Of a stretch of 36,336 nucleotides of DNA, positions 8,480-30,702 are shown piece after piece (position 1 is the first letter of the stretch; each line of letters starts with the position of its first letter). The position numbers and the translations under genes were made by a program. The stretch comes from Candidatus Nanohaloarchaea archaeon (GTDB lineage Archaea; EX4484-52; GLR71). The notes under the pieces are model-generated. The model saw only the letters and a list, made by a program, of their open reading frames with translations. It made no database searches and was not told the DNA's origin. The DNA lies in NCBI GenBank assembly GCA_030671745.1, contig DAOVHT010000001.1:1-36336 (forward strand). Reading direction: 5' to 3'.

Positions 8480-8516
8480 CATTTACTGACAGATAAATTA
8501 AAAAGAAAAAAAGACA

Positions 8517-9161
8517 TCACTTCAAGAAAACTCCGGTGATGCCTTCCATGTTCTGTGTTTGCGCATCGGCAAGTGTTGCATCACCGACGAATATGTTTGC
8601 ATCATTGCTTCCACCACTCAGGAATCGTTCTGTATTATTATCATATACAGTGTCTACATAGATGCCTGGTTTATGCTCAATTGAGAAATCATATACTTTG
8701 AAATTCTGGTATGTCGACCCCCAGATTATGTTTGTATTGTTTCCCATCATCTTGCGGAAATCTTCATCCAAGTATATGTTTATATCTAGAACCTCGTTGT
8801 TGATTGTGGGGACTATATATATTTCAGCAATACTATCTTTTGGATCCATGTCTGGTGTTATGCGCAACAGTACAGATGTTTCATTTTCGTCATTCATGAA
8901 TGTGACTTCATTTAAAAAAGTGTAACCATTCAATATGCCTATATGTTCAAATAATATCTTATAACGTCCGTCATCATATTGCATGCTTGCTGCATTGTCG
9001 TCATATCCATTCCCCTCTGTAATTTCTGTTGTGTTTATAACAGGTTCTATTTTTGATGAGTCATTATAATTCATATAAATATTTACAAGTGATATCAACA
9101 TTAGCAGTATAAGCACACCAATAATCAATTGCTTCTTATTAATTTTATTTTGTATATTCAT
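8517..9161 (-). CDS. Signal-anchored hypothetical protein; last gene of the minus-strand pilin-like operon
   Basis: The ATG at 9161 gives MNIQNKINKKQLIIGVLILLMLISLVNIYM (the track start 9170 is GTG). It begins 12 nt after the stop of the upstream gene. Confidence 0.6.
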   Translation of the reverse strand: MNIQNKINKKQLIIGVLILLMLISLVNIYMNYNDSSKIEPVINTTEITEGNGYDDNAASMQYDDGRYKILFEHIGILNGYTFLNEVTFMNDENETSVLLRITPDMDPKDSIAEIYIVPTINNEVLDINIYLDEDFRKMMGNNTNIIWGSTYQNFKVYDFSIEHKPGIYVDTVYDNNTERFLSGGSNDANIFVGDATLADAQTQNMEGITGVFLK

Positions 9162-9173
9162 AAATATCACATT

Positions 9174-11765
9174 TTATCTGTTTGGCCATGCATTCCATTT
9201 ATCTACATAATGTGCAACAATTTCATATGACGCGCCCGTTATGAAATTAACAGTAGGGATTAAGACAACACCCACTCCTGTTGTAGCTAATGCAGTACTT
9301 GCAACAATGTCTATAGCAACTCCCACCAGCATAGCACTAGTTTTTATGGAACCACCCAACCAATCCACACCAGCATAGCAATAATTTGTACCCTCAAAGG
9401 AATTATCAAATTCGACATAGACTTTAAGTGCATTTATATCTGTGTTAACCTCTGTTTTCCATAGATTATTTAGGTTATAGGGTTCGCACTGTTTTATCCC
9501 ATTCCCATCAGCATCCATATATAATGTTGGTATTTCAACATAACTATTGCCCGTATCTACTATTTCTGAATTATGAACTTGTGCGGAATTAAATTGTACA
9601 TAATATTCGGTCCCATCTATCTCTTTTTCAGTTGCACCATTATAATAATCCGCTGCAGAATTGATTTCAACCGTACTGGACCAACTACTACTTTCATCCG
9701 GTTTATATTTAGTATCTGCACCTTCATACCTTCCTAATGTTGTAATCTGTGGGTGGGTTAGATAATAGTATTCTTCTTTAGGGTCATACGGCGTGTCTAT
9801 ATTATAATATGCACCTTGACATCTACCTCCTGCACTTACTTCCAAACCTTCATCAATACACTTGTTATCTGATACGATTTGATCACCCAAATTTAAATCA
9901 ATTTGATAACCTGTAGGACCTACCAAACCTAACTGTAGACCTGTGTCAGGGAATGTGATTGTTCCGTCAGCATTTGCAGTATTTTCCGTATACAACACAG
10001 TACTGTCTCCATTGGGATTACCAAAAAGATATCCATTTTGTGTACCACTATTTGGTGCATTTGGGTCATAATAATCAGGGAATGCCATACAATTATCCTT
10101 TGTCGTCCATGTAAGTTCTCTTTCGACTCCCATACTATTATAATTGACTTCAGTTGTTTTATTACAGCATACAAGGTCATTTTTACATTCAGTAACATAA
10201 CATCCCATTTTTTCATGTTTAACTATTACTTTTTCAGTCTTACATGGGCTTGCAAGGAAAAATCTAGTTGGTCTTTGTGGTTCATCCCTACTCAGAGCGA
10301 TATAATAATAATTTATTATATCTTCCAACTGTTCTGTCTGTACATTATAATAATTGCTTTTATACCCGAGTGCATTTATTCCAACAGCATTATATTTTTC
10401 ATTATCATTATCTATATATGCTGCACTAATACCGACACTCGTTACAAATGCACACAATAATGTGCCTTTACTTTTTATGCCTAACATAACTCCGCAAGTT
10501 GAAAATGCATTGACTGCCTCAGCATTATCTTCACTTAACACAGACTCAGGGATATTCTCAGTTACAAGATCAATAGCCCATAATTGAAATATGCCCTGTT
10601 CTAATGGTTTTGCCTGCATATAGAATTCAGAGAGTCTTTTTGCATCAGAAAGAATAATATCTTTTTGTGATTTAGCCAAATTATTATATATCTTTAATGA
10701 TTTTTCAATTTCTTCTGTCATCATTTTCTGTGTCCAACCACCACTCGCCAATCCACCAAACATAAAATCATCATATATATTTAATCGTCTTAAATTTTGC
10801 AATTTGATTAATGCATCTCCTTTACTTTCACTGACAACATATTCTAAAGAATTTCTATAATTTTTTGCAATGACTTCTCGTTGTAATTTATGTAGGGTTG
10901 GGTATTTTTGTTCCATTTTAGTTATTAATGTTTTTTCAAATTCTTTTCCATCAAATTTAGTATTTTTCATGAGGTATTCTTGACTATCTAATATGAGATC
11001 TTTTGTTAATTCTTCTCTGATCTCATCCTCTATTGCATCTTCAGCACCATAAAACACATAACGTATGATACCGTCTGCATTTTTTATACCATGTGATAAT
11101 ATTTTTTTTTCAAGTACCATTTTTCCATAAAGTTTTCCCGGAACTTTCAGTGCTTTAAGTATAAATTGTGGGTCTGTCATAGTGTTTACTATAGTTTTCA
11201 TAGATACTTTTATGCCTTTCCATCCGGCGTTAGTTATTTGCTTTGCTCCAGGAATCATATTTAGAGCACCTCCAAGCATTACACCTCCCCAACTGAAATC
11301 TTCAACTCTCACTTTCCAGTCTGCAGCCTGATCTTCTGGAAATGCCTCATAATATACAAGGCAATTTGGGTCACCCATTCCAGTAATCCATCCTTCTGGA
11401 TCACTTTCATCATATTCTGGATCTTTTGTCAATTCAAATCCTTGTACTTCACAATTATAGTTTTCATCTTCACCATAACACACCGCAACTTTTGTTCCGA
11501 ACTCTTTTTGCGCGGGACATAATTCAGTCACATCAACTCCCGCGTGCGACATACCCACACAATTAAGTGCATAAGCTAAAGCTTGTATGGATCTAATAGA
11601 ATTAGTATCACATCCAGGGGTCAGCTCAGGAAAAGCATAATTTGTCAAAAATTCAAACAACGGCTGACCGATATCTGATGTCACAAACATAGTGCCTGCC
11701 CCTAAGATAACAAGACCTATAATCAAGTTAGCGACCAATGGTAAGGTTCCTTTTTTATTTTTCAT
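9174..11765 (-). CDS. Large (863 aa) prepilin-like-leader protein with additional internal and C-terminal hydrophobic segments
   Basis: The leader is MKNKKG|TLPLVANLIIGLVILGAGTMFV. Further hydrophobic stretches are FSWGGVMLGGALNMIPGA, GVMLGIKSKGTLLCAFVTSVGISAAYI and SAMLVGVAIDIVASTALATTGVGVVLIPTVNFITGA. I recognise no catalytic motif. Confidence 0.8.
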   Translation of the reverse strand: MKNKKGTLPLVANLIIGLVILGAGTMFVTSDIGQPLFEFLTNYAFPELTPGCDTNSIRSIQALAYALNCVGMSHAGVDVTELCPAQKEFGTKVAVCYGEDENYNCEVQGFELTKDPEYDESDPEGWITGMGDPNCLVYYEAFPEDQAADWKVRVEDFSWGGVMLGGALNMIPGAKQITNAGWKGIKVSMKTIVNTMTDPQFILKALKVPGKLYGKMVLEKKILSHGIKNADGIIRYVFYGAEDAIEDEIREELTKDLILDSQEYLMKNTKFDGKEFEKTLITKMEQKYPTLHKLQREVIAKNYRNSLEYVVSESKGDALIKLQNLRRLNIYDDFMFGGLASGGWTQKMMTEEIEKSLKIYNNLAKSQKDIILSDAKRLSEFYMQAKPLEQGIFQLWAIDLVTENIPESVLSEDNAEAVNAFSTCGVMLGIKSKGTLLCAFVTSVGISAAYIDNDNEKYNAVGINALGYKSNYYNVQTEQLEDIINYYYIALSRDEPQRPTRFFLASPCKTEKVIVKHEKMGCYVTECKNDLVCCNKTTEVNYNSMGVERELTWTTKDNCMAFPDYYDPNAPNSGTQNGYLFGNPNGDSTVLYTENTANADGTITFPDTGLQLGLVGPTGYQIDLNLGDQIVSDNKCIDEGLEVSAGGRCQGAYYNIDTPYDPKEEYYYLTHPQITTLGRYEGADTKYKPDESSSWSSTVEINSAADYYNGATEKEIDGTEYYVQFNSAQVHNSEIVDTGNSYVEIPTLYMDADGNGIKQCEPYNLNNLWKTEVNTDINALKVYVEFDNSFEGTNYCYAGVDWLGGSIKTSAMLVGVAIDIVASTALATTGVGVVLIPTVNFITGASYEIVAHYVDKWNAWPNR

Positions 11766-11805
11766 GCGCTCATCAACTATTTGTATTTCTGATTATATAT
11801 TATTT

Positions 11806-12993
11806 TTATGTTTTATCTTCAATTACTATTATTATGTCATCTGAATCATAAGGGGTGCCAGTTGGACCATAAAATCGCTCGTCAAAATAATAGAATGGCT
11901 GAATTTCATATACATTATCTGTTAATAGTTTATGTGGTCCACTATTTTCGATACCACTTTGATTAATCATCAATCTATTTTTTATCATATACAAACAATT
12001 AGCGTCGGAATCACCTTTTGCCCAAGTAACACTATTGAATTCATCTGGGTTGATATCATCTTTTTTAGAATTTAAAAGATCGCAGGGGGATAAAGTATAA
12101 CTGAATGTATTTATTGAATTGAACCATTCATATAAATCTGCATCTGCCTTGGGTTTAATAAGAACTGTATTCTGGCACGCAAAATAACCATTATAATCGA
12201 TATTATCTGAATAGCTACCCATAAAATCATTTTTAAATTGGGTTGAACAGGAGGCGATATATGTATTTATATCATTTTTTGCATTGACATCAGTTTCAGC
12301 AGTTAAATCAATAATATTTGGTAAACTATAATCAATACCAACTCCACTAGAATCTCTCTCATCTCTACAGATACTAGCATCATTCAATCGTCCTTTACTT
12401 TGTGAAAATTTGTCTATGTTTGAATTTCGTGGTGGATTATACCAATTGATCAGGCTTTCACCTTTACAATATTCCATACGTGGATAAAAAAATAATGTAT
12501 CTCTACTAGAACCTGTCGTATCCCACAACCAACCTATTGTGCCTGTAAAAAGACCACCATTATTGCATACTGGTTGGTCATCCCACCAGAATACCATATC
12601 TACTTCATCTAATGTGTTAATTTGTGATGATGACCAAGCACTTTGATAACAGTCATCTACATGATTTTCCATAACTCCTTCAGTTGCATCAGTTATATTA
12701 TTGACCATATCTTCCCATGTTACGGTCCCAGTATACAATTCCTGTTTCAACCAACACGCTTTTTGACCGTTCCATGCAACCTTTGCAGCCAGTTGTATGT
12801 TTTTCATAAAGGTCTTATAATCGACAACACCAACATCACCAGGACAATAAGCGCCAGGCATAGGTATATTAAAATCTCTTGCGCTGTCAGTAATCTTCTT
12901 ACCAAGGGATCCGCCTGTCATCATCACTGCAGCAAGGACTATTACAAATATCATTATCGTCTGCATCATCGTTATAGTTCCTTTTTTACTCAT
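11806..12993 (-). CDS. Prepilin-like-leader secreted protein (395 aa), hypothetical
   Basis: The leader is MSKKG|TITMMQTIMIFVIVLAAVMMTGG, followed by a Cys- and Trp-containing extracellular-looking domain. ATG at 12993 lies 6 nt after the upstream stop. Confidence 0.8.
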   Translation of the reverse strand: MSKKGTITMMQTIMIFVIVLAAVMMTGGSLGKKITDSARDFNIPMPGAYCPGDVGVVDYKTFMKNIQLAAKVAWNGQKACWLKQELYTGTVTWEDMVNNITDATEGVMENHVDDCYQSAWSSSQINTLDEVDMVFWWDDQPVCNNGGLFTGTIGWLWDTTGSSRDTLFFYPRMEYCKGESLINWYNPPRNSNIDKFSQSKGRLNDASICRDERDSSGVGIDYSLPNIIDLTAETDVNAKNDINTYIASCSTQFKNDFMGSYSDNIDYNGYFACQNTVLIKPKADADLYEWFNSINTFSYTLSPCDLLNSKKDDINPDEFNSVTWAKGDSDANCLYMIKNRLMINQSGIENSGPHKLLTDNVYEIQPFYYFDERFYGPTGTPYDSDDIIIVIEDKT

Positions 12994-12999
12994 AAAAAT

Positions 13000-13191
13000 C
13001 TAACCTGAAAACACATTCTTTATCATCATGGGCACAAAACTGCCCCCATAATTCCCGAATTTTCTTGCCGCATAACTTGCGGCAACAATCAATATTGAAA
13101 ATGCTAAAAGACCCATACATATCTTGATGATAAGTTCTAGGTCCATCGCGCCTTTCCGACTCTTGATAAGATAATAGGTAATCTCTAACAT
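13000..13191 (-). CDS. Mini prepilin-like protein (63 aa; about 49 aa after the predicted cleavage)
   Basis: The ATG at 13191 gives MLEITYYLIKSRKG|AMDLELIIKICMGLLAFSILIVAASY, with Glu at +5. The track start 13209 is TTG. Confidence 0.6.
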   Translation of the reverse strand: MLEITYYLIKSRKGAMDLELIIKICMGLLAFSILIVAASYAARKFGNYGGSFVPMMIKNVFSG

Positions 13192-13209
13192 ACATTCACC
13201 GTTATTCAA

Positions 13210-13716
13210 TCATGGGTCTTGAATCTCATCTGCACAGGTCTTTGTAAGTGCACCACTACTGTCATTATTTACCTGACAACATTGATTATCATTTCCTGTA
13301 TCAAGCACAAGCCACCACTCTCTATTATTTGGACCACTTTTAGTTTTTGGATCATACTTAAACGCAGCCATCGTGCATTCTACAGGACTACATTCACTGA
13401 TATCGCCCACACATTTTTCAGATACACAAGCATGCGGGGGATTGGGTATAGTCTCATTAGGTGGGAATAATGTGCAATAGGTCTCATTGCCACACTTGTT
13501 CATACAATCCTCTGTATTGCATGCACCTACAAGACATTCAGCACTAGTATTACTTACGCATGGGTCAACAATAGATATGCAGCATTGTCCCTGATTATCA
13601 TAGTCGCATACTTGCTCTGTCTTCATGTTCATGAAGTTCATAAGCATGAATCCAATTATCATTACAAGGAACAGCGACATGATAACATAAAAGATTGAAA
13701 GTCCACTGCGCCTCAT
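13210..13716 (-). CDS. Prepilin-like-leader Cys-rich secreted protein (168 aa from ATG 13716)
   Basis: The leader is MRRSG|LSIFYVIMSLFLVMIIGFMLMNF, followed by a domain with about 20 Cys. The track start 13803 is TTG and lies within promoter-like AT-rich sequence. A TATA (TTATATAC, minus strand) at 13738-13745 is about 26 nt upstream of ATG 13716. Confidence 0.7.
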   Translation of the reverse strand: MRRSGLSIFYVIMSLFLVMIIGFMLMNFMNMKTEQVCDYDNQGQCCISIVDPCVSNTSAECLVGACNTEDCMNKCGNETYCTLFPPNETIPNPPHACVSEKCVGDISECSPVECTMAAFKYDPKTKSGPNNREWWLVLDTGNDNQCCQVNNDSSGALTKTCADEIQDP

Positions 13717-13737
13717 ATAGTATTCTTGTCTTTCTTT

Positions 13738-13790
13738 GTATATAACATTTTTGTCTTTTTTTACCTCAACAATCACAAACAAATATATTA
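13738..13790. promoter_or_regulatory. Compact divergent promoter with two TATA boxes, each about 26 nt from its ATG (leaderless-type)
   Basis: gtatataac (13738-13746) serves the minus-strand gene starting at 13716. aaatatatta (13781-13790) serves the plus-strand gene starting at 13813. Confidence 0.5.
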
Positions 13791-13812
13791 ATGAACACAC
13801 CAAATCTTAATC

Positions 13813-14001
13813 ATGTTGATTTATCCTTATGTTGAAACTTTGAACCGTGTCCGTAAAGGTCAGGACATAGGAATATCAAAGATAGCAGCTTTAGTGCTTA
13901 TGATGGCGGGGATTCTAGTGTTCATCGCAGTCCTTTATTCTATGATGACAAAAGGTCAAGGTGTGATGGATGTGATTGATCCGTTAGAATACAGTAATTG
14001 A
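13813..14001 (+). CDS. Mini prepilin-like protein (62 aa; about 46 aa after the predicted cleavage)
   Basis: ATG start. The leader is MLIYPYVETLNRVRKG|QDIGISKIAALVLMMAGILVFIAVLY, and only about 20 residues follow the helix. Confidence 0.6.
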   Translation: MLIYPYVETLNRVRKGQDIGISKIAALVLMMAGILVFIAVLYSMMTKGQGVMDVIDPLEYSN

Positions 14002-14014
14002 TGATGTGATAAAT

Positions 14015-14284
14015 ATGAGAAAAGGAATGACAATCGCGATAACTCTTGTAATGGCAATGCTTGTGGCATTGGTTGTAGCCTTTGTCTTGATATCGATGTT
14101 CAGCACATCGATGGATAAGGGTAGTAAGGGGTTGACTGGTTCTTTAGACTCGACAACAGATGATGTAACTGGATTGGCTTGCAGTACCCATTGTGCGACC
14201 TGCTGTATAACGCAGGATGAAGATTATTGCGAAGATACGGATCATGGTGCGCCCTCAGATGCTTGCGAATGTCCAAATTGTTAA
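14015..14284 (+). CDS. Small prepilin-like protein with an 8-Cys C-terminal module (C-x3-C-x2-CC family)
   Basis: The ATG at 14015 gives MRKG|MTIAITLVMAMLVALVVAFVLISMF (the track start 14006 is GTG). The tail is CSTHCATCCITQDEDYCEDTDHGAPSDACECPNC. Confidence 0.75.
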   Translation: MRKGMTIAITLVMAMLVALVVAFVLISMFSTSMDKGSKGLTGSLDSTTDDVTGLACSTHCATCCITQDEDYCEDTDHGAPSDACECPNC

Positions 14285-14296
14285 GGTTTGATACTT

Positions 14297-14542
14297 ATGC
14301 GAAAAGCTATGACACAGTCAATATCTCTTATAACTGTCATAGTCGTAGGTCTTTTTGTGGTTGGAATTCTTATTATCATGGTTGGTGACAAGATGGGCAA
14401 GGCATCCGATGCGATTGGTCAGAATACAGATGTCACAGAAGACAGCCTTGAATGCAAGACTGAGTGTTCAGCCTGTTGTGCGACAGGGTATGGCGATACT
14501 GTCTGTGAGCGCCAGTTCATAGCCTGTGATTGTAGTTGTTGA
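14297..14542 (+). CDS. Small prepilin-like protein with an 8-Cys C-terminal module; tandem paralogue of 14015-14284
   Basis: The ATG at 14297 gives MRKA|MTQSISLITVIVVGLFVVGILIIMVG (the track start 14288 is TTG). An AAGGT SD-like sequence lies at 14283-14287. The tail is CKTECSACCATGYGDTVCERQFIACDCSC. Confidence 0.75.
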   Translation: MRKAMTQSISLITVIVVGLFVVGILIIMVGDKMGKASDAIGQNTDVTEDSLECKTECSACCATGYGDTVCERQFIACDCSC

Positions 14543-14691: not shown

Positions 14692-14931
14692 TCATTTCTT
14701 TTTTCCTAAAAAGTCTAAGAATTCATCTCTGTTCATATTAAGGTCCTGTTTGACAATTTTATTGAGTAATCCTCTATCCAGTTTTTCACCCGGGTGTACA
14801 GGTACTACTGTTGTTCGTCCATCTATATGTTCAAAGAATTGGTGGCTTCCATGTTGCCGTTTAAATTCAAAGCCCAATCTATTAAGTATTTTTATTAATT
14901 CTTTGGCAGTTATAAGTGGCCTTTTGACCAT
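14692..14931 (-). CDS. hicA: HicA-family mRNA interferase toxin
   Basis: KELIKILNRLGFEFKRQHGSHQFFEH..GRTTVVPVHPGEKLDRGLLNKIVKQ matches the HicA/YcfA pattern, including the GSH motif. It lies 2 nt downstream of hicB. Confidence 0.9.
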   Translation of the reverse strand: MVKRPLITAKELIKILNRLGFEFKRQHGSHQFFEHIDGRTTVVPVHPGEKLDRGLLNKIVKQDLNMNRDEFLDFLGKKK

Positions 14932-14933
14932 AT

Positions 14934-15158
14934 TTATGCCTCTACTTCAAGCTGTTCAAGACCTAGAAATTTTGTTTTGATTATATTGGCTTTATTTTCC
15001 ATCAAGTATAATTCTATTGCTTCTTTTGTTCTTTTGATTAGTTCATCGCGTGTTTTTGCCTGTGTGTGGCATCCTGGAAGTCCAACGACTTCTGATATCA
15101 GATATCCATCTTCCCCTTCTTCGATGATTATTGTATATTTTTCACCCATATAAATCAT
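14934..15158 (-). CDS. hicB: HicB-family antitoxin (UPF0150-type); start uncertain (ATG at 15158 or 15149; the track start 15194 is TTG)
   Basis: KYTIIIEEGEDGYLISEVVGLPGCHTQAKTRDELIKRTKEAIELYL is the typical HicB N-terminal fold signature. Confidence 0.85.
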   Translation of the reverse strand: MIYMGEKYTIIIEEGEDGYLISEVVGLPGCHTQAKTRDELIKRTKEAIELYLMENKANIIKTKFLGLEQLEVEA

Positions 15159-15222
15159 ATGGTGTTTCTTTTTTATAAATCTTCTCATCTCCAAAAATTA
15201 TATATAATCAACAATCTAAAAG

Positions 15223-15522
15223 ATGTATATAGTGTTTACGATGGCATTCTTAAAATCAAGAAAAAAGGGTGAATTGACAATTGAGACAGTCATAATCATA
15301 GTCTTATTTCTTGCAGTATTAGCTATTGTGATATTGGTTGTCAGTTCATTGACCGGTAAAGGTTCAGATTCAATGGGGACAACCATTGAGACCACAGGCG
15401 CTGGCGCACTCTGCGAGATCGAATGCATGAAGTGTTGTAGTAGTCAAGAAAAAGATTGTGAACCAATAGGTTCTTGCTGTGTTGATAAAGATGACCAAAA
15501 AATTGGTTGCCAATTGACTTAA
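15223..15522 (+). CDS. Small prepilin-like protein with an 8-Cys C-terminal module (C-x3-C-x2-CC family)
   Basis: The leader is MYIVFTMAFLKSRKKG|ELTIETVIIIVLFLAVLAIVILVV, with Glu at +1 and +5. The tail is CEIECMKCCSSQEKDCEPIGSCCVDKDDQKIGC. The TATA ttatatataa at 15198-15207 is about 20-25 nt upstream. Confidence 0.75.
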   Translation: MYIVFTMAFLKSRKKGELTIETVIIIVLFLAVLAIVILVVSSLTGKGSDSMGTTIETTGAGALCEIECMKCCSSQEKDCEPIGSCCVDKDDQKIGCQLT

Positions 15523-15535
15523 ATTCTCTTAAATC

Positions 15536-16804
15536 TCAAACTCTCAACAAAAATTTCCAAACAGGAACAATCTCAATATCATCAACAGTCCCTTCCTCTT
15601 CAAGTGTTACAACCATTGACTTTTCTACCTTATCTCCGAATTTGTCCAGATATTTTCTGATTTGTTTAACCGATTTCCTGCTCTGCTTAACTTCAATAAT
15701 CTCCTGTTTATCATCTTTCAAAAGCACAAAATCAATCTCGAAACCATTCCTATAAAAAAACTTAGAGTCTGTATATGTGGCCACCATATTTTCAAGCAAG
15801 TATGGTAAAAGACTATCAATATCCTGATTGAATGCGAATGCAATGTTGGGTGTATAAAGATATGCTTTTTTCATCTTTCTCATGCTGGCAATCGGACTGC
15901 CTCTATAATTGAATACTGGTTTTACTAAAAGTCCGAATTCAAGATATTCAAAATAATTGGCAATCGTTCTCTGATCCTTACCGAGGTCTTGCGCAATCTC
16001 TTTATAATTGACAATCATGCCTGGCTTTTTGCAGATGATATATACAAGTGTCTTGAGCAGTTCAACATCTTTTATCTCAAATTCTGCAGGCAAATCTTTG
16101 TATATGATTCGTTCTATGACATTGTTCAATATGTACCTTTTAGCGAATTCCTCATCAGTTTCATCATAAAGTTCGGGAAACATACCATATTTAAGATATC
16201 TATAAAACAATGGAATCAATTCTTTTTTCCATAGATCTGGATTGGTCTTTATCACTTTAAGATCTTTGCCGTTCAGCTCAATAAATTCTTCAAAAGATAA
16301 GGGTTTCATCTGAAAATCAATTATTCTGCCTGCAAGACTTTCAGTTGACTTTTTTCTCAGGCTGACTGATGCCGAACCAGATATGAATAATTTGACATTT
16401 GGATAAAGGTCATAGATAACTTTAATCTTGTTCTCCCAGTCATCAACTTTCTGTATCTCGTCCAAGAATATATAGACTTTACCCTCTATATCATCAAAAC
16501 TTTTTCCCAATATAGTTTTCTGATACGTTTCAAGAACATCTCTGAATTCAAACACTACTTCATCAAAAGAGAAATATAATACATTTTTTTGGTCAGCATC
16601 TGCAAGTATTTTCTGTATTAATTGGTACATTGTAGTTGTTTTTCCGACACGTCTTAATCCCCAGACTAACATTACTTGTTTTTTATCAATATATTTCTCA
16701 ATCTCAAAATATATGCGCCTTTTATACGGTTTAAGTAACGTCTCCTTTACTGTTCCCGTTTTCCACCACGGATTGAATTTTACTAAGTAATCAATAGGGG
16801 TCAT
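15536..16804 (-). CDS. AAA+ ATPase of the AAA_14/DUF4143 type
   Basis: It has the N-terminal FNPWW motif, a Walker A (GLRRVGKTT) and a Walker B-like IFLDEIQ. The C-terminal region has the DUF4143-like pattern. Length is 422 aa. Confidence 0.9.
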   Translation of the reverse strand: MTPIDYLVKFNPWWKTGTVKETLLKPYKRRIYFEIEKYIDKKQVMLVWGLRRVGKTTTMYQLIQKILADADQKNVLYFSFDEVVFEFRDVLETYQKTILGKSFDDIEGKVYIFLDEIQKVDDWENKIKVIYDLYPNVKLFISGSASVSLRKKSTESLAGRIIDFQMKPLSFEEFIELNGKDLKVIKTNPDLWKKELIPLFYRYLKYGMFPELYDETDEEFAKRYILNNVIERIIYKDLPAEFEIKDVELLKTLVYIICKKPGMIVNYKEIAQDLGKDQRTIANYFEYLEFGLLVKPVFNYRGSPIASMRKMKKAYLYTPNIAFAFNQDIDSLLPYLLENMVATYTDSKFFYRNGFEIDFVLLKDDKQEIIEVKQSRKSVKQIRKYLDKFGDKVEKSMVVTLEEEGTVDDIEIVPVWKFLLRV

Positions 16805-16826
16805 GTATATATTATTGCGTCCAAAC

Positions 16827-16834
16827 TATATAAA
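16827..16834 (-). promoter_or_regulatory. TATA box (TTTATATA on the minus strand) 23-30 nt upstream of the ATPase ATG
   Basis: The plus strand reads tatataaa at 16827-16834. The ATG is at 16804, so the spacing fits a leaderless archaeal promoter. Confidence 0.45.
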
Positions 16835-16836
16835 TT

Positions 16837-16891
16837 TAATGACATTGCAACGTCATTATTTCTGGGTTTTAATGACATCACAACGTCATAA
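16837..16891. promoter_or_regulatory. Two tandem copies of a 22-bp inverted repeat (operator-like) just upstream of the TATA box
   Basis: TAATGAC-ATTGCAAC-GTCATTA (16837-16858) and TAATGAC-ATCACAAC-GTCATAA (16870-16891). The arms are 7 bp, the spacers 8 nt, and the centre-to-centre distance is 33 bp. Confidence 0.5.
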
Positions 16892-16945
16892 CTTTTTGAA
16901 TTAAATGCTTAATCGTTATCGGGGCTCTTCCGCATCAACTCAATT

Positions 16946-17788
16946 TCAACTTTTTTTCTTCCTTTCCAACCTCTTAACTTTTTCAGGCACAGTCAAGTAA
17001 TTGTCGCTTGAACTTACTTTCTCATTTGTCTCAGATTCCAATTCCTTTCGCGCATTGCCTGCAATCGAACCTCCTTTTTTTGAAGCAATCTTGTTCTTAT
17101 CAAATTCTATCGCATCCGAAGATTTTGCAATGGCAGTGGTGGAAGCTTCACCAAGCATAGTAAAAATCAACTCTAAACCATCCATATGGTCTCTTAGATT
17201 CTGTTTTTCAAGTCCTTTAAACTCTTTGTATTCAGAAGGTGTCATATCAAAAGTTGCTTTACTAATCTCAGCCGTTAAAATTGAAAACTCTTTATTGGTT
17301 CTCACTCCCCGATTAGTCCATTCATCTGTTAATTCTTCTCTTACTGCAATACCTCTGATTCTTTTCTCAATCCACTCATCCGAATAACCTTTTTGTCGAT
17401 ATAGTTCTTTCATCCTTTTTTGAGCCAATTCTGGATCTTGAATTTCCTGTATTCTTTCATAACCTACTTTAGCGAGCCATTTTTTGAAAGGTTCGGCCTT
17501 CTTTGATGGTATTGATTGTATTATACGAAATAATAATTTTGTATTGGCACAATCAGTATTTCTTAATTTTCCATCTTCTGCGGAAAGTTTCAACTGTACG
17601 ATTTTATCGTACGATTCAAAACCTTCTATATTTAATTTTGATTTCAAATCAGACCAATATCTCTTAGGTATAGAACTCTCCGTTAACGCTTCTACTACAT
17701 CAACAACAGAAAAATACCATTGTTCTTCATGCCAGATTCTCCTGATATCCTTATTTTCAAACACGACCAATGCCTTATCTTTATCCAT
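16946..17788 (-). CDS. Bro-N domain protein (antirepressor/DinD-like), paralogue 1
   Basis: The N-terminus KALVVFENKDIRRIWHEEQWYFSVVDVVEAL is Bro-N-like. The conserved core is SKKAEPFKKWLAKVGYERIQEIQDPELAQKRMKELYRQKGYSDEWIEKRIRGIAVREELTDEW. The ATG at 17788 lies 5 nt after the upstream stop (the track start 17797 is GTG). Confidence 0.85.
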   Translation of the reverse strand: MDKDKALVVFENKDIRRIWHEEQWYFSVVDVVEALTESSIPKRYWSDLKSKLNIEGFESYDKIVQLKLSAEDGKLRNTDCANTKLLFRIIQSIPSKKAEPFKKWLAKVGYERIQEIQDPELAQKRMKELYRQKGYSDEWIEKRIRGIAVREELTDEWTNRGVRTNKEFSILTAEISKATFDMTPSEYKEFKGLEKQNLRDHMDGLELIFTMLGEASTTAIAKSSDAIEFDKNKIASKKGGSIAGNARKELESETNEKVSSSDNYLTVPEKVKRLERKKKS

Positions 17789-17793
17789 ATCAA

Positions 17794-18654
17794 TCACCTT
17801 AATTTCTTTCGTTTTTGACTTTCCGGTTCATCCAGATAATTGTCTTTTGAAATGATAGTCTTATCTAATCGTTTTTCAATATCTTTTCTTGTTGCACCTG
17901 CAACATCGCCACCATCATGAGCATCTTTTTTTATTTTAGCGAATTCTTGTGAATTTCGTTCTTTTGTAAATTTTGTAGTTGTGGCTTCACCTAACATAGT
18001 CAGTATAAGTTCAATGTCATTCATATGGTCTCTTAGATTCTGTTTTTCAAGTCCTTTAAACTCTTTGTATTCAGAAGGTGTCATATTAAAAGTGGCTTTG
18101 CTGATTTCAGCCGTAAGGATTGAAAATTCTTTATTAGTTTTTACACCACGATTGGCCCATTCATCAGTCAGTTCATCACGAACTGCGATTCCTCTAACTC
18201 TTTTTTCAATCCACTCATTCGAATAACCTTTCTGTCGATAAAGCTCTTTCATCCTTTTTTGTGCAAGTTCTGGGTCTTCAATCTCTTGTATTCTCTCATA
18301 ACCAACTTTAGCGAGCCATCTTTTGAAAGGTTCTGCTTTTTTAGATGGTATCGATTGAATTAAACGTAAAAGTCCCATAATATTCCAACACAATATCAAT
18401 TGCGGACCACCTTTAGTATCGAATTCAAATCCAAGGGGGGGTACAATTTGTCCCCCCCCTTTGAACACATCATTTAAAGAGTTATCTCTTTTTCTAAGTT
18501 TTTTTAAGTAGTCTGTAGGATTTACAGATCCTGTAAGTACCGTCACAACATCCTTTATTACAAACCACCATTGATTATCATGCCAAACTCTTCTGATATC
18601 CTTATTTTCAAACACAACCAATGCTTTATCTTTGTCTTTATTCATCTTAATCAT
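17794..18654 (-). CDS. Bro-N domain protein, paralogue 2 (start refined to ATG 18654)
   Basis: Alignment with paralogue 1 (MIKMNKDKDKALVVFENKDIRRVWHDNQWWFVIKDV) supports this start. The TATA CATATAAG (minus strand) at 18683-18690 lies about 30 nt upstream of 18654. The extra 30 N-terminal codons in the track ORF have no counterpart in paralogue 1. Confidence 0.85.
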   Translation of the reverse strand: MIKMNKDKDKALVVFENKDIRRVWHDNQWWFVIKDVVTVLTGSVNPTDYLKKLRKRDNSLNDVFKGGGQIVPPLGFEFDTKGGPQLILCWNIMGLLRLIQSIPSKKAEPFKRWLAKVGYERIQEIEDPELAQKRMKELYRQKGYSNEWIEKRVRGIAVRDELTDEWANRGVKTNKEFSILTAEISKATFNMTPSEYKEFKGLEKQNLRDHMNDIELILTMLGEATTTKFTKERNSQEFAKIKKDAHDGGDVAGATRKDIEKRLDKTIISKDNYLDEPESQKRKKLR

Positions 18655-18861
18655 CCTCTTTGGATGATTTTCATTTTTCAGCTTATATGCCTGTCGGGAG
18701 AGAGCCGTGCCGGTATGCCAATAGAATCCACAATTGATGCACAAAATTGTTGTTTAAGCACTCATTTTGCGCTTAATTTAGATTTAGTGCGTTTATCAAC
18801 GAAACCTTTATAAACTCTGATAACTAATATATACTACTTACAAGTTACACAAATTATAAAT

Positions 18862-19902
18862 ATGGTGTTCAAAATGAATGCAGATGATATGATTTCGGTA
18901 TTGAAAGGCAAGATTAGTGAAATTGACCCAAGAAAAGCCTTTACAGGTGTTGCGCTAGGCACTACCTTATCTCTTGCAGGCGCAGCCCTTATCTATGGTG
19001 ACCTTGAACAGTTTAATGAATCTATAAAAAATACAATGAACGCGGGTGTTAGGTCTGCAAGTTTATATGTTCATGATATGATTTCGGATAATATTTATTC
19101 TATTGAATCTCTAAAAGCGATAGCGACAAATGTTGACAATGAAGTCCTTGCAGGCGCAGGTATGTTGAGTGCTGGTGCACTTTACCATACAATTAAAAAA
19201 AATGGTATTTCTGACACTGGCGCATCAATTTATCATGCAATAGTTGATTCTATTGAAACTCTTGGCATTGATAAAAAACGCGCAAAACGCGGTCTATTAT
19301 ATACTGGAATCCTTGCTGTAATAGGAACTTCAATGGCAACTTCTGGCTGTTTAGATTTCGGCGGCGATGACACAGTTGTTACAACAAGTACTGATAATAT
19401 TCCAACTCCTGAACCAATAGAACCAACTCCAGTTGAAACAGAAACGCAAGTTGAGACTAATATTATAGAACCTGTAGCAGAACAAGTTGAAACTCCATGG
19501 TATGTTGATCAATATGGTTTTGAAGATGCAGATGTTGGTATACATTCAACTTTATTTGATGATGTTTATGCAGTAAAAAGTTCAGCATATGGTGATGGGA
19601 ATTATAATCTTTATAGTATTGAAAATAGTGAATCTATTCTAAAACATCAAGAATTCACTCCATCAAACCTTCGCCTAGACCTCGATCTGTCATCCGACCA
19701 GTATCGCGCACTAAACGCCCAGTACGGCACCATGATTTCCGCGACAATGGAGACAATCGACCTCGACCGCGACGGCACCATGGACCAAGTCGCCATCCAC
19801 TATGTGGGAACCGGCGGGGATGAAGGAAAAGTGTTGGAGATTAAGACTGATTATCAAAACAGATGGCAGTTACGGGATTATTTGATAACTTATTTTCAAT
19901 AG
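18862..19902 (+). CDS. Membrane protein (346 aa), hypothetical, with a T/P/E-rich linker and a compositionally distinct C-terminal domain
   Basis: Three hydrophobic segments are present: FTGVALGTTLSLAGAALIYG, VLAGAGMLSAGALY and LLYTGILAVIGTSMATSGC. The linker is TPEPIEPTPVETETQVET. The last ~75 codons are much more GC-rich than the rest of the gene. Confidence 0.7.
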   Translation: MVFKMNADDMISVLKGKISEIDPRKAFTGVALGTTLSLAGAALIYGDLEQFNESIKNTMNAGVRSASLYVHDMISDNIYSIESLKAIATNVDNEVLAGAGMLSAGALYHTIKKNGISDTGASIYHAIVDSIETLGIDKKRAKRGLLYTGILAVIGTSMATSGCLDFGGDDTVVTTSTDNIPTPEPIEPTPVETETQVETNIIEPVAEQVETPWYVDQYGFEDADVGIHSTLFDDVYAVKSSAYGDGNYNLYSIENSESILKHQEFTPSNLRLDLDLSSDQYRALNAQYGTMISATMETIDLDRDGTMDQVAIHYVGTGGDEGKVLEIKTDYQNRWQLRDYLITYFQ

Positions 19903-19904
19903 AG

Positions 19905-20171
19905 TTAACAAATACAATTACAGTTTTTATAATATGGTAAATTACATTCTGTAACTGGGTCTTCTGCTCTACAACAACTCCAACACAACTGCTGGCACTC
20001 ACTCGCCCCACCAGCCCCCTCAATCTTCGTCCCGCCGATATCAACAAGATCAGCGCCAGAGCGCGTTATGAGTATCAGCATAATCGCCAGCGCAACAAGC
20101 AGCACGATAAGAATTACGATCGTGTTGATAGGCAATTCCATGCCCTTGCGCTTCTTAGAGAAAAGATTCAT
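19905..20171 (-). CDS. Small prepilin-like protein with an 8-Cys C-terminal module (C-x3-C-x2-CC family)
   Basis: The leader is MNLFSKKRKG|MELPINTIVILIVLLVALAIMLILI. The tail is CQQLCWSCCRAEDPVTECNLPYYKNCNCIC. A TATA (GATATAAACC, minus strand) at 20191-20200 is about 22-28 nt upstream of ATG 20171. Confidence 0.8.
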   Translation of the reverse strand: MNLFSKKRKGMELPINTIVILIVLLVALAIMLILITRSGADLVDIGGTKIEGAGGASECQQLCWSCCRAEDPVTECNLPYYKNCNCIC

Positions 20172-20220
20172 AACAATTATTATCGATTCAGGTTTATATC
20201 TGTTTTTGGTGTGATTACTT
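20131..20220 (-). repeat. Direct repeat copy 1: promoter plus the first ~13 codons of the pilin-like gene at 19905-20171
   Basis: 20161-20220 matches 20621-20680 at 57 of 60 positions by my count. 20131-20150 also matches 21845-21864 at 16 of 20 positions. Confidence 0.85.
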
Positions 20221-20471
20221 ATATACTCGTTTTCTGGTATCTATATTTATGACAACAACAAGAAGATTATTGTAATCAACTCTGTAAAGTATACGAAAAT
20301 CTCACACCCTGATTCTAAACACTTTCTCTTTTTGACCCATTATTCTTTTTGAATCATGTGGTATCGGGTCCTCTGCAAGTTTTTCAATGGATTCAAGAAT
20401 TCTCAGAGTCATATTCTTATCAAGTTTTTAAGTGATTTCTGGATTGGTTTATCTAAAAATATCTCAAACAT
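20215..20471 (-). pseudogene. relE: RelE/ParE-family toxin pseudogene (one frameshift plus one in-frame stop)
   Basis: The minus strand reads MFEIFLDKPIQKSLKNL, then needs a 1-nt insertion to continue as (D)KNMTLRILESIEKLAEDPIPHDSKRIMGQKEKVFRIRV*DFRILYRVDYNNLLVVVINIDTRKRVYK. The stop (TGA) replaces the Gly of the conserved RiRvGdyRiiY motif. It is below the track threshold because it is broken. Confidence 0.8.
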
Positions 20472-20473
20472 AT

Positions 20474-20587
20474 TCAAAGACCCAATTCTTTCTTAAACTC
20501 AGAAATAGATACAAGTTTACCTTCTTTTTCATTCTTGAAACTTTCATCTACAAGAACTTTATCTTTCTCGCTCAATATAGTATCCAT
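20474..20587 (-). CDS. Short (37 aa) antitoxin-like ORF immediately upstream of the relE remnant; possibly itself truncated
   Basis: MDTILSEKDKVLVDESFKNEKEGKLVSISEFKKELGL. Its stop TGA (20474-20476) lies 2 nt before the relE ATG (20471), which is the typical type II TA arrangement. Confidence 0.5.
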   Translation of the reverse strand: MDTILSEKDKVLVDESFKNEKEGKLVSISEFKKELGL

Positions 20588-20599
20588 GTCAATTATGGC

Positions 20600-20680
20600 A
20601 TACCCTTCTCGCTTCTTAGAAAAAGATTCATAACAATTATTATCAATTCAGGTTTATATCTGTTTTTGATATGATTACTT
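20600..20680 (-). repeat. Direct repeat copy 2: degenerate promoter plus frameshifted leader remnant (MNLFLRSEKGMP*)
   Basis: It is about 90% identical to 20140-20220 with two 1-nt indels. The TATA-containing part is retained. The remnant ORF stops after 12 codons. Confidence 0.85.
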
Positions 20681-20723
20681 CTTTTTTGATATAAAATTAT
20701 GCTTTGAGTTTGTATTGCTGAAA

Positions 20724-20755
20724 GGTGTCTACAAAAATATATAAATGTAGACACC
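20724..20755. promoter_or_regulatory. 32-bp palindromic element A (10-bp arms around an AT-rich TATA-like spacer), 6 nt upstream of the Fic ATG
   Basis: GGTGTCTACA-aaaatatataaa-TGTAGACACC. Confidence 0.6.
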
Positions 20756-20761
20756 CATTAT

Positions 20762-21670: not shown

Positions 21671-21708
21671 ATATGTTAATTTTTAAACAGAAAAAATAAT
21701 TAGTGGTG

Positions 21709-21740
21709 GGTGTCTACAAAAATATATAACTGTAGACACC
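21709..21740. repeat. 32-bp palindromic element B, a near-identical second copy 38 nt downstream of the Fic stop
   Basis: GGTGTCTACA-aaaatatataac-TGTAGACACC differs from element A at 1 nt, in the spacer. It is followed only by a 4-codon ORF. Confidence 0.6.
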
Positions 21741-21844
21741 TTGTATGTATATTCATTAATTTCAAAGTGATTCTTATTGGTTTGGTTTAATTTTTAAAGC
21801 CTATTCTCTGATTTTTAAAACTTAAACAAAAGAACCTTAATCTC

Positions 21845-28520: not shown

Positions 28521-28553
28521 ATATAAAAGAAAATGATTGCAAGGTAAATGATT

Positions 28554-28811: not shown

Positions 28812-28812
28812 A

Positions 28813-29136: not shown

Positions 29137-29168
29137 TTATTGATCTAATACTTTCTATATTCTCAAGC

Positions 29169-29384: not shown

Positions 29385-29386
29385 AC

Positions 29387-30691: not shown

Positions 30692-30702
30692 CAAGGAGAT
30701 TA

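What the first reader, a model, noticed from the sequence alone, without database searches (positions are those of the whole stretch)
8517..14542. Second pilin-like locus: two divergent operons (five genes minus strand, three genes plus strand) sharing one compact double-TATA promoter
From the 96-bp intergenic region 13717-13812, transcription would run leftwards through five genes: 13716-13210, 13191-13000, 12993-11806, 11765-9174 and 9161-8517. Gaps between them are 6-40 nt. Rightwards it would run through three genes: 13813-14001, 14015-14284 and 14297-14542.

Seven of the eight products carry the [KR][KR]G/A-plus-hydrophobic leader:
- MRRSG|LSIFYVIM
- SRKG|AMDLELII
- SKKG|TITMMQTIM
- NKKG|TLPLVANLI
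- VRKG|QDIGISKIA
- MRKG|MTIAITLV
- MRKA|MTQSISLI

The locus mixes mini-pilins, Cys-rich small proteins, a 395-aa protein and an 863-aa protein. It shares no evident one-to-one paralogy with the 27522-36336 operon beyond the leaders. That suggests two distinct filament or surface assemblies, or a major-subunit set plus an accessory set.
Basis: partly seen in the sequence, partly recalled or inferred. Interest (0 to 1): 0.75.

Follow-up and report, generated by a model that had tools for sequence, protein, structure and literature searches.

The report
DPANN archaeal pilin-like gene cluster
This stretch of a tiny symbiotic-type (DPANN) archaeon encodes a conserved set of pilin-like surface proteins, built around a large, fast-evolving membrane protein that avoids sugar-attachment sites and is probably part of a type IV pilus-like attachment apparatus.

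Summary
All eight ORFs exist as described, and seven start with a basic leader, then G/A, then a hydrophobic helix. That G/A is kept in every ortholog.

The two arms diverge from a 96-bp spacer with two conserved TATA-like boxes about 25 nt upstream of the start codons.

No curated model (Pfam, NCBIfam, PHROGs) or solved structure matches any product, and both AlphaFold runs failed.

Comparative genomics gave the main result:
- The 863-aa and 214-aa proteins form a gene pair found across DPANN archaea, always inside clusters of pilin-like genes.
- In three loci from two or three lineages, the pair or a family member sits directly after a T2SSE secretion ATPase and a TadC-like platform.

So the locus is most likely the subunit and accessory half of a type IV pilus-like system whose motor is encoded elsewhere.

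- The 863-aa protein is not a simple pilin. It is a mosaic protein with several hydrophobic segments. Parts are 16-29% identical between strains whose IleRS is 91% identical.
- Its family almost lacks N-glycosylation sequons (1 versus 105 expected in the central region).
- The cluster extends to 15522 and 20171.
- The cluster is ancestrally adjacent to the downstream locus.

The parts
8517..9161 (-). 214-aa signal-anchored extracellular protein (w214). Conserved partner of the 863-aa protein; no Cys and no G/A leader.
   Evidence: ORF. 19 close homologs, all without Pfam domains. Family members lie next to the big protein in about 20 distant DPANN loci. Two homologs carry a lipobox-like LSGC instead of the anchor, which places the domain outside the cell.
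9174..11765 (-). 863-aa mosaic membrane protein (w863, 'BIG' family). Order of parts: pilin-like leader MKNKKG|T, Cys-rich domain, Gly-rich hydrophobic segment, Cys-free helical region, second Cys-rich domain, C-terminal hydrophobic hairpin ending in WP.
   Evidence: A profile search finds 261 relatives, 121 of them at E<=1e-10. Family anatomy. Region-wise identity. Sequon depletion.
11766..11805 (-). 40-nt spacer holding a TATA-like box (AAATAATATATAAT), a likely internal promoter for the 863-aa and 214-aa genes.
   Evidence: Sequence. The box is conserved in five lineages.
11806..12993 (-). 395-aa Cys-rich prepilin-like protein (MSKKG|TITMMQ).
   Evidence: Duplicated in L002, L006 and L010. 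No detectable homology to the ~350-aa proteins at the same position in distant loci.
13000..13191 (-). 63-aa mini prepilin-like protein with a long conserved leader (…SRKG|AMDLELIIK) and Glu at +5.
   Evidence: 95% identical in L001. GGTGA lies 5-9 nt upstream of the ATG.
13210..13716 (-). 168-aa prepilin-like protein with 16 Cys (MRRSG|LSIFYV). First gene of the minus arm.
   Evidence: Orthologs read MRKKG| or MKRKG|.
13717..13812 (.). Shared divergent promoter region with two conserved TATA-like boxes. GTTATATAC lies about 22-30 nt upstream of the minus-arm ATG. AAATATATTA lies about 22-31 nt upstream of the plus-arm ATG.
   Evidence: Sequence. Alignment with L001, L002 and L005. A 25-nt direct repeat at 13715-13762.
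13813..14001 (+). 62-aa mini prepilin-like protein (…VRKG|QDIGISK) with a 16-residue conserved leader.
14015..14284 (+). 89-aa Cys-rich mini-pilin-like protein (MRKG|MTIAITLV; Cx3Cx2CC).
   Evidence: (paralog of the next gene, E 2e-12).
14297..14542 (+). 81-aa Cys-rich mini-pilin-like protein (MRKA|MTQSISLI).
   Evidence: (the L009 ortholog has G in place of A).
15223..15522 (+). 99-aa Cys-rich paralog (…RKKG|ELTIETVIII) beyond the HicAB insertion, with its own TATA-like box. Belongs to the same set.
   Evidence: (E 8e-11 to the 81-aa protein). The ortholog in L001 lies behind a different toxin-antitoxin pair.
19905..20171 (-). 88-aa Cys-rich paralog (…KKRKG|MELPINTIVILIV) inside the inserted mobile-looking segment.
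   Evidence: (the L005 copy hits the 99-aa protein at 5.5e-11).
8485..8516 (-). Oligo-T tracts directly after the stop codon of the 214-aa gene. Likely archaeal terminator of the minus arm.
   Evidence: Sequence read. Function is inferred only.

Best explanation
The region is the subunit and accessory half of a type IV pilus-like (archaeal Epd/Tad-like) surface-filament system of a DPANN archaeon.

Shown:
- Two divergent transcription units start from one short spacer with conserved TATA-like boxes. A third probable start lies before the 863-aa gene.
- Seven products (nine with the two extra paralogs) begin with a conserved basic leader, then G/A, then a hydrophobic helix.
- The 863-aa and 214-aa genes are a pair conserved across DPANN lineages, inside clusters made almost wholly of such proteins.
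- In L012, the big-family gene and the 214-aa-family gene follow a T2SSE ATPase and a 9-TM TadC-like platform in one gene array. L032 and L034 carry the same ATPase and platform followed by a weaker big-family member, with no detected 214-aa homolog.

Inferred:
- The proteins insert into the membrane by their N-terminal helix.
- An A24 prepilin peptidase encoded elsewhere cuts after the G/A.
- An ATPase and platform encoded elsewhere polymerise the small subunits. These are the 62/63-aa Flp-like proteins and the 81-99-aa Cys-rich proteins, stiffened by disulfides.
- The 168-aa and 395-aa proteins act as minor or priming subunits.
- The 863/214 pair forms an adaptor at the base or the tip. Its rapidly replaced segments contact the partner (host) cell or escape something that targets it.
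For: - Motif statistics and ortholog conservation.
- 63 of 79 distant family members keep [KR][GA] in the first 30 residues.
- Synteny with 40-60% identical relatives, next to IleRS.
- The big and 214-aa families are neighbours in about 20 distant loci. These are surrounded by 5-20 genes with KK[GA]|hydrophobic N-termini, including classical-looking Q-x-I-S-I-N-T-I-V-x-A-A-I-A-L pilin helices.
- The T2SSE ATPase matches PF00437 at E 4e-15 to 1e-16, above the cut-off.
- The platform matches PF00482 at 27.1 bits against a cut-off of 25.2, and its two homologs match it at 1e-137.
- Gene order in L012/L068 is ATPase, platform, two big-family genes, then the 214-aa-family gene.
- The same ATPase clade often stands without pilin genes nearby, so separate subunit loci are normal in these lineages. 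Makarova 2016 (PMC4858521) says the same for nanoarchaea.
- Even Cys counts fit disulfide-bonded external domains.
- Published precedent: unrecognisable pilin islands in DPANN genomes (PMC6393860).
Against: - No ATPase, platform or prepilin peptidase lies in the 36-kb window or on the contigs of close relatives.
- No product matches any pilin or class III signal model in Pfam or NCBIfam. None matches a solved pilin by sequence profile.
- By the strict FlaFind pattern as I recall it, only two of the leaders pass.
- The ATPase linkage rests on two or three lineages out of about 25. From the ATPase side it appears only in those sub-lineages.
- Both structure predictions were unusable (pLDDT 37 and 41), so no pilin fold was seen.
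- The 863-aa protein has features foreign to pilins: internal hydrophobic segments and a C-terminal anchor.
Confidence: 0.6

Rival explanations
1. The products are not pilins. They are uncleaved, signal-anchored, disulfide-rich envelope proteins forming a DPANN-specific membrane or cell-surface complex around the 863/214 pair, assembled without any type IV pilus machinery. The KKG motif would be a lineage habit of signal anchors.
For: - No assembly genes lie in the window or in close relatives.
- All pilin models are negative.
- The 863-aa protein looks like an integral membrane protein. It has a hydrophobic segment after the YYExFP motif in 58 of 79 members, a charge switch of -2.6 to +2.7 across that segment, and a C-terminal hairpin.
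- Most loci with the pair have no ATPase within 10 kb.
Against: - The G/A right after the basic residues is kept over very large distances and swaps only between G and A.
- The 214-aa family in the same loci is signal-anchored and never has the G/A, so the motif is not a general habit of anchors.
- There is operon-like linkage to a T2SSE ATPase and TadC in L012, L032 and L034.
- The conserved 14-16-residue leaders of the 62- and 63-aa proteins have no role in a plain anchor.
Confidence: 0.2
2. The 863-aa family is the working part. It would be a glycan-free, membrane-active host-contact protein (pore, fusion or insertion device) that a DPANN episymbiont uses to connect to its host. The small pilin-like proteins would only carry or present it.
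For: - Sequons are almost absent, most extremely in the central helical region (1 versus 105 expected), while control patterns are normal. The depletion is not proteome-wide.
- The protein has Gly-rich internal hydrophobic segments and a C-terminal anchor.
- It is mosaic and hypervariable between near-identical strains.
- The family is restricted to DPANN lineages.
Against: - There is no structural or sequence similarity to any known fusogen or pore former.
- The central region is predicted as many short helices rather than long heptad coils, although that model has low confidence.
- Hypervariability of the helical region is unlike the conserved cores of known fusion proteins.
- Nothing here shows membrane activity.
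Confidence: 0.12
3. The cluster belongs to an integrated virus or other mobile element, and the proteins are virion or transfer-apparatus components.
For: - Mobile-looking genes lie next to it: HicAB, two Bro-N genes, Fic, and an AAA_14 ATPase.
- Weak, non-significant hits to conjugation family names appeared.
Against: - The cluster keeps the same chromosomal place next to IleRS, HIT and MFS genes in lineages 40-90% identical. The mobile-looking block is absent from L002 and L006.
- There are no PHROG matches.
- No relative was found in 2.9 million viral contigs.
- G+C content shows no evident break across the locus.
Confidence: 0.03

Closest known systems
Archaeal type IV pili of the EppA-dependent (Epd) kind and related euryarchaeal adhesion pili (Makarova, Koonin & Albers 2016, PMC4858521)
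   Same: - Clusters of several small proteins with class III-type leaders, plus larger signal-peptide proteins read as minor pilins or adhesins.
- Gln at +1 in some leaders.
- Many conserved cysteines in some systems.
- Subunit loci are often separate from the ATPase/TadC operon.
   Different: - No member matches the curated pilin or class III models.
- No peptidase or ATPase is at hand.
- A conserved pair (the large protein with several hydrophobic segments and the 214-aa partner) has no described counterpart in that survey as far as I could read it.
Bacterial Tad/Flp pili
   Same: - Very small mature subunits (about 45-50 residues for the 62/63-aa proteins).
- Glu at +5 in the 63-aa protein (G|AMDLE).
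- Several pseudopilin-like accessory proteins.
- TadC-type platform in relatives.
   Different: - No Flp (G|xxxxEY) consensus.
- No TadZ, RcpA or TadG equivalents.
- Archaeal promoters and context.
- Similarity is at the motif level only and rests partly on my own knowledge of the Flp motif.
Predicted 'dark matter' pilin islands of DPANN genomes (Makarova, Wolf & Koonin 2019, PMC6393860)
   Same: Islands of uncharacterised signal-peptide proteins in DPANN genomes, read as diverse pilins because FlaI-like ATPase and TadC genes lie nearby. This is the same logic and the same kind of locus.
   Different: Four things are added here:
- the conserved big/214 gene pair
- its mosaic hypervariability
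- its sequon avoidance
- its presence in loci that lack the ATPase

I could not check whether the exact family appears in their figure.
Large pilus-associated adhesins such as PilY1/DUF2341 proteins, or the 'large signal peptide containing protein' of Thermoproteales type IV pilus loci
   Same: One large, variable, Cys-containing protein per pilin cluster, a natural candidate for the adhesive or specificity-giving part.
   Different: - No DUF2341 or other known domain.
- The protein has a prepilin-like leader, internal hydrophobic segments and a C-terminal hydrophobic hairpin.
- It has a fixed partner gene.

Membership tests
Archaeal type IV pilins / class III signal peptide proteins | Short basic leader, G or A at -1, then about 20 hydrophobic residues at the very N-terminus | tested here: met
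   Seven of eight products, plus two extra paralogs. Binomial p 7e-5 to 2e-9. No spurious ORF carries the motif.
Archaeal type IV pilins / class III signal peptide proteins | The cleavage-site residue is conserved among orthologs | tested here: met
   G/A is invariant in all orthologs in L001, L002, L005, L006, L009 and L010. One A/G exchange occurs. 63 of 79 distant big-family members keep [KR][GA].
Archaeal type IV pilins / class III signal peptide proteins | Match to curated models of class III signals or archaeal pilin N-termini (Pfam, NCBIfam) | tested here: not met
   No hit at E<=1 to any such model for the nine window proteins or in Pfam for ten small pilin-like proteins of distant loci.
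Archaeal type IV pilins / class III signal peptide proteins | Strict FlaFind-type pattern around the cleavage site (as I recall it: [KRDE][GA][ALIFQMVED][ILMVTAS]x3) | tested here: inconclusive
   By eye on the sequences, only the 89-aa and 99-aa proteins pass. The others have polar residues at +1 to +5. The pattern is quoted from memory.
Archaeal type IV pilins / class III signal peptide proteins | Genomic link to a T2SSE-family ATPase and a TadC/FlaJ-type platform | tested here: inconclusive
   Absent from the window and from close relatives' contigs. Present directly upstream of family members in L012, L032 and L034, and in L035, L037 and L068.
Archaeal type IV pilins / class III signal peptide proteins | A24 prepilin peptidase in the genome, and cleavage of the leader | not testable with these tools
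   No candidate lies in the window. The rest of the genome is not available.
Archaeal type IV pilins / class III signal peptide proteins | Pilin fold (long N-terminal helix packed on a beta-sheet domain) and assembly into a filament | tested here: inconclusive
   AlphaFold models of the 863-aa and 214-aa proteins had mean pLDDT 37.4 and 40.8, so no fold search was run. A profile of the mini-pilins against PDB gave only E>0.1 hits, mixing pilins with generic membrane helices.
Tad/Flp-type minimal pilins | Mature subunit of about 40-60 residues, with Glu at +5 after a G| cleavage site | tested here: inconclusive
   The 63-aa protein reads G|AMDLE and the 62-aa protein G|QDIGI. Sizes fit, but there is no EY motif.
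'BIG' family defined here (relatives of the 863-aa protein) | Ordered motifs: NFELPQ, GDPxYLVYYExFPxxE..W, GGxxNxxPxxGK, DxxNEK..P.G.N, RFxLASPC, NYCY, and a C-terminal hydrophobic hairpin ending in WP | tested here: met
   Alignments A1 and A3. 261 relatives at E<=1e-3. None has a Pfam domain.
'BIG' family defined here (relatives of the 863-aa protein) | Adjacent gene of the 214-aa family | tested here: met
   The window, plus 8 close and 18 distant locus entries (some duplicate contigs) with both families as neighbours, co-directional or convergent.
Integrated virus / mobile element | Viral or transfer hallmark genes, a variable chromosomal position, or presence in viral contigs | tested here: not met
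   No PHROG match below E 0.001, the only hit being one E 0.004 match to an unknown-function family. No relative in viral contigs. Fixed position next to IleRS.
Diversity-generating retroelement target | A template/variable repeat pair and a reverse transcriptase near the hypervariable gene | tested here: not met
   No repeat pair involves 9174-11765 beyond two short chance-size matches (D10, D12). No reverse transcriptase was found among the major ORFs scanned with Pfam.

The most novel reading that the evidence does not exclude
The 863-aa family, with its 214-aa partner, is a previously undescribed DPANN-wide host-contact module.

It would be a large protein launched by a prepilin-type leader and kept free of N-glycans along its whole length. 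It would be built from conserved scaffolds and swappable segments, and would decide which host cell the episymbiont binds or connects to.

Its near-total lack of sequons would mark a region that is exposed outside the cell but must stay bare. The reason could be that it threads through a narrow passage, packs into a filament core, or inserts into the partner's membrane.
Probability: 0.2. Interest if true: 0.85.

Novelty: new variant of a known kind. Interest (0 to 1): 0.56.

Why it matters
DPANN archaea live attached to other archaea, and the molecules that make and specify that contact are largely unknown. Pilus-like genes are the usual suspects, but they are mostly unrecognisable by sequence.

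This analysis turns an anonymous run of small ORFs into a defined, conserved module:
- It has a testable core, a gene pair present from Aenigmatarchaeota-like to Woese- and Nanoarchaeota-like genomes.
- It has a documented link to a secretion ATPase and platform.
- It has two unusual and easily checked properties: strain-level cassette-like replacement of parts of the large protein, and family-wide avoidance of N-glycosylation sites.

If the module sets host range or mediates the cell-cell bridge, it would be a direct handle on DPANN symbiosis. If not, it still gives a family-level annotation for several hundred hypothetical proteins.

Tried and rejected
- **Curated families.** Pfam, NCBIfam and PHROGs scans of all products found nothing significant. 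Weak hits with conjugation names (TraL, TraJ, TraN, pLS20_p028; E 0.006-0.14) were set aside as noise from membrane-helix composition.
- **RNA genes.** Rfam and tRNA scans of the window found nothing.
- **Structure prediction.** The 863-aa protein (10-sequence alignment) and the 214-aa protein (17 sequences) gave mean pLDDT 37.4 and 40.8. Both job slots are spent, and fold search was deliberately not run on such models.
- **Profile searches against PDB.** For the 214-aa family, the only hit was at E=1. For the big family, only helical-repeat and designed proteins and FliG appeared at E 0.002-0.02, read as composition. The mini-pilins gave nothing below E 0.1.
- **395-aa family.** Profile-profile comparison with the ~350-aa proteins at the same position in distant loci found no homology beyond the leader.
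- **Downstream locus.** The large protein from 31985 to the window end is not a big-family member.
- **Hypervariability mechanism.** A diversity-generating retroelement was considered, but there is no template/variable repeat.
- **Mobile origin.** No relatives in viral contigs.
- **ATPase-side search.** A scan of metagenome contigs confirmed that the ATPase-platform pair is constant. The big family follows it only in the L012/L032 sub-lineages.
- **Proteome-wide sequon avoidance.** Rejected, because cytoplasmic and housekeeping proteins have ratios of 0.77-0.94.

Full report
**1. What is in the sequence**

The window is archaeal. It carries an archaeal/eukaryal-type ProRS and an IleRS. The closest public relatives of its genes are labelled DPANN, Nanobdellati, Aenigmarchaeota or Nanohaloarchaea MAGs.

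All eight ORFs of the finding exist at the stated coordinates.
- The minus arm is 13716-13210 (168 aa), 13191-13000 (63 aa), 12993-11806 (395 aa), 11765-9174 (863 aa) and 9161-8517 (214 aa).
- The plus arm is 13813-14001 (62 aa), 14015-14284 (89 aa) and 14297-14542 (81 aa).

Seven products start with a basic leader, then G or A, then a strongly hydrophobic stretch. The 214-aa protein has KKQ instead.

The motif is unlikely to be chance:
- G+A make up 12.1% of these proteins, so 6 of 8 immediate [KR][GA] junctions has p = 7e-5.
- Across the whole window, 13 of 17 gives 2e-9.
- A six-frame scan finds the motif 13 times, only in real genes.

Cys counts are even (18, 10, 16, 8, 8), as expected for disulfide-bonded external domains.

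**2. Promoter and operon structure**

The 96-bp spacer holds two TATA-like boxes. GTTATATAC lies 22-30 nt upstream of the minus-arm ATG, and AAATATATTA lies 22-31 nt upstream of the plus-arm ATG. Both are invariant in L001 and L002, whose proteins are only 40-80% identical to the window's.

The first genes have no Shine-Dalgarno-like sequence. The internal genes have GGTGA, GTGAT or AGGT 5-13 nt upstream. This fits leaderless first cistrons and is inference from sequence.

A further TATA-like box sits in the 40-nt spacer before the 863-aa gene and is conserved in five lineages. The five-gene arm is therefore probably two units. Oligo-T tracts follow the last stop codon.

**3. Curated resources and structure prediction**

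No product matches Pfam, NCBIfam or PHROGs. Profiles of three families find nothing significant among solved structures. AlphaFold with the shallow alignments available gave mean pLDDT 37 and 41. I did not search folds with those models.

**4. Close relatives and the true extent of the locus**

The three larger proteins have very few close homologs among 5.8 billion sequences: 10, 7 and 19.

Their contigs show the same divergent arrangement next to IleRS, HIT and MFS genes.

In L002 and L006 the downstream pilin-like locus of the window (27522 onward) lies directly beside this one, separated only by ProRS. In the window the two are pushed apart by two things:
- a block absent from L002 and L006, holding HicAB, an AAA_14 ATPase, two Bro-N genes, a 346-aa ORF and Fic
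- a heavily sequon-rich S8 subtilase

The set also includes two more Cys-rich paralogs, at 15223-15522 and 19905-20171. The Cys-rich mini-proteins share Cx3Cx2CC. They have weak relatives in the downstream locus. Its large protein is unrelated to the 863-aa protein.

**5. A conserved core across DPANN**

A profile of the 863-aa family finds 261 proteins of roughly 700-2000 aa, 121 of them at E<=1e-10. Those checked have no Pfam domain.

They share ordered motifs (NFELPQ, GDPxYLVYYExFPxxE..W, GGxxNxxPxxGK, DxxNEK..P.G.N, RFxLASPC, NYCY, C-terminal WP) and mostly begin with KK[GA] plus a hydrophobic stretch.

In 29 loci from species-representative genomes, the family occurs in Aenigmatarchaeota, Woesearchaeota, Nanoarchaeota and similar MAGs.

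In about 20 of the distant loci, a homolog of the 214-aa protein is the immediate neighbour, either co-directional or convergent.

The surrounding 5-20 genes nearly all have the same kind of N-terminus. These include about 100-aa, 6-Cys proteins with a textbook-looking pilin helix, and about 50-aa proteins flanking a ~350-aa protein just upstream of the big gene. The ~350-aa proteins are positional analogs of the 395-aa protein, not detectable homologs.

**6. Link to a motor**

In L012, L032 and L034, a family member lies directly downstream of two assembly genes:
- A 739-748-aa T2SSE ATPase (PF00437, E 4e-15 to 1e-16).
- A 9-TM protein of 650-707 aa. The L034 copy passes the T2SSF threshold, and the other two are its clear homologs.

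L012/L068 reads ATPase, platform, big, big, 214-aa family, then more pilin-like genes.

Searching from the ATPase side (66 metagenome loci), the ATPase-platform pair is constant. The big family follows it only in those sub-lineages. Elsewhere the pair stands alone or is followed by other MKG|-type pilin-like genes.

Separate subunit loci are thus normal here, as reported for nanoarchaea (PMC4858521). The linkage is real but narrow, which is why I hold the pilus reading at 0.6.

**7. The 863-aa protein is not a plain pilin**

Across 79 members the build is as follows:
- leader and helix
- a Cys-rich domain (2.8 Cys per 100 aa)
- a Gly-rich hydrophobic segment, with net charge -2.6 before it and +2.7 after it
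- a helical region of about 280 aa almost without Cys (0.14 per 100 aa)
- a weaker hydrophobic segment
- a second Cys-rich domain (2.2 per 100 aa)
- a C-terminal hydrophobic hairpin

Compared with the L001 strain, the protein is mosaic:

| Protein or region | Identity to L001 |
|---|---|
| IleRS (reference) | 91% |
| 63-aa protein (reference) | 95% |
| 863-aa, first domain | 82% |
| 863-aa, central region | 16% |
| 863-aa, conserved core | 67% |
| 863-aa, second variable part | 29% |

No diversity-generating retroelement repeat is present.

**8. An unexplained signal**

N-X-S/T sequons are nearly absent from the family:

| Region | Observed | Expected |
|---|---|---|
| First Cys-rich domain | 54 | 158 |
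| Central helical region | 1 | 105 |
| Second Cys-rich domain | 46 | 193 |

Six control patterns are at or near expectation, none deviating by more than about a third.

The depletion is not a proteome habit:
- Cytoplasmic ORFs, the ATPase clade, the platform and housekeeping proteins have ratios of 0.77-0.94.
- The 214-aa family is at 1.1.
- The downstream-locus proteins x332 and x436 are at 1.75-2.4.
- The subtilase has 80 sequons against 27 expected.

Other class III-like proteins of distant loci are also depleted (0.39), as is the 395-aa family (0.46).

Selection against sequons makes sense only for chain exposed to the oligosaccharyltransferase, that is, outside the cell. This conflicts with the Cys-free and positive-inside argument that the central region is cytoplasmic. 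I leave the topology open between two models:
- several membrane passes with a cytoplasmic middle
- the whole chain outside, between two anchors, and kept bare

**9. Verdict**

The pilin-like reading is partly supported and refined.

The locus is best seen as a lineage-specific version of the known archaeal type IV pilus-like subunit cluster. It is organised around a newly delineated, DPANN-wide gene pair whose large member has unusual evolutionary and compositional properties.

Still inferred, not shown: cleavage of the leaders, filament formation and the role in host contact.

Noticed in passing
window 14692-15194; L001 664-1660: Toxin-antitoxin hot spot between the 81-aa and 99-aa pilin-like genes. 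The window has HicA/HicB there, and the related strain L001 has a HEPN/nucleotidyltransferase pair at the same place.
   Followed up: partly
window 15536-21740: A block absent from relatives L002 and L006. It holds an AAA_14/DUF4143 ATPase, two Bro-N paralogs (300-nt repeat, 82%), a 346-aa ORF, a pilin-like 88-aa gene and a Fic gene.
   Followed up: partly
window 20722-20757 and 21707-21742: Two nearly identical 36-nt palindromes (GGTGTCTACAAAAATATATAAATGTAGACACC) bracket the Fic gene exactly, as if it were a cassette or had hairpin terminators or promoters on both sides.
   Followed up: no
window 20161-20220 and 20621-20680: A 60-nt repeat (95%) duplicates the promoter and first codons (MNLF) of the 88-aa pilin-like gene. 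The second copy heads a short remnant next to two tiny ORFs that look like a degraded toxin-antitoxin pair.
   Followed up: partly
window 23528-27544: The membrane-anchored S8 subtilase (1338 aa) has 80 N-X-S/T sequons against 27 expected and 537-nt internal repeats. Its stop overlaps the start of the first gene of the downstream pilin-like locus, suggesting co-transcription.
   Followed up: partly
window 31985-36336: The downstream locus ends in an ORF of more than 1450 aa, with 35 Cys and a leader TRTKG|VSGIEMLIPIF, that runs off the window. It is not related to the 863-aa family.
   Followed up: partly
L002 9058-11665: The ortholog of the 863-aa gene is split into 769-aa and 86-aa ORFs. This is a frameshift, a stop, or an assembly error.
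   Followed up: no
L001 4570-4720: The spacer before the large gene is expanded by a tandem repeat, seen as 'HISFIMSYL' x5 in a spurious opposite-strand ORF.
   Followed up: no
L007 (= L003), contig JAIVYO010000028.1: A contig carrying this archaeal locus and an IleRS is filed in a MAG named 'Campylobacterales bacterium'. It is probably a mis-binned contig.
   Followed up: no
L101 1779-2531: A 70%-identical copy of the 214-aa domain occurs with a lipobox-like N-terminus (LMSGC) among other lipobox proteins, without a large-family gene on the 4.7-kb contig.
   Followed up: partly
L071, L073, L074, L075: Some ATPases of the same T2SSE clade are 1249-1450 aa instead of about 750. This may be an intein or an inserted domain.
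   Followed up: no
L012 431-823; L032 1468-2511; L034 806-1486: A coiled-coil protein is encoded divergently just upstream of the T2SSE ATPase in these loci (the L032 and L034 copies match at E 5e-11). It may be a regulatory or scaffold partner of the motor.
   Followed up: no
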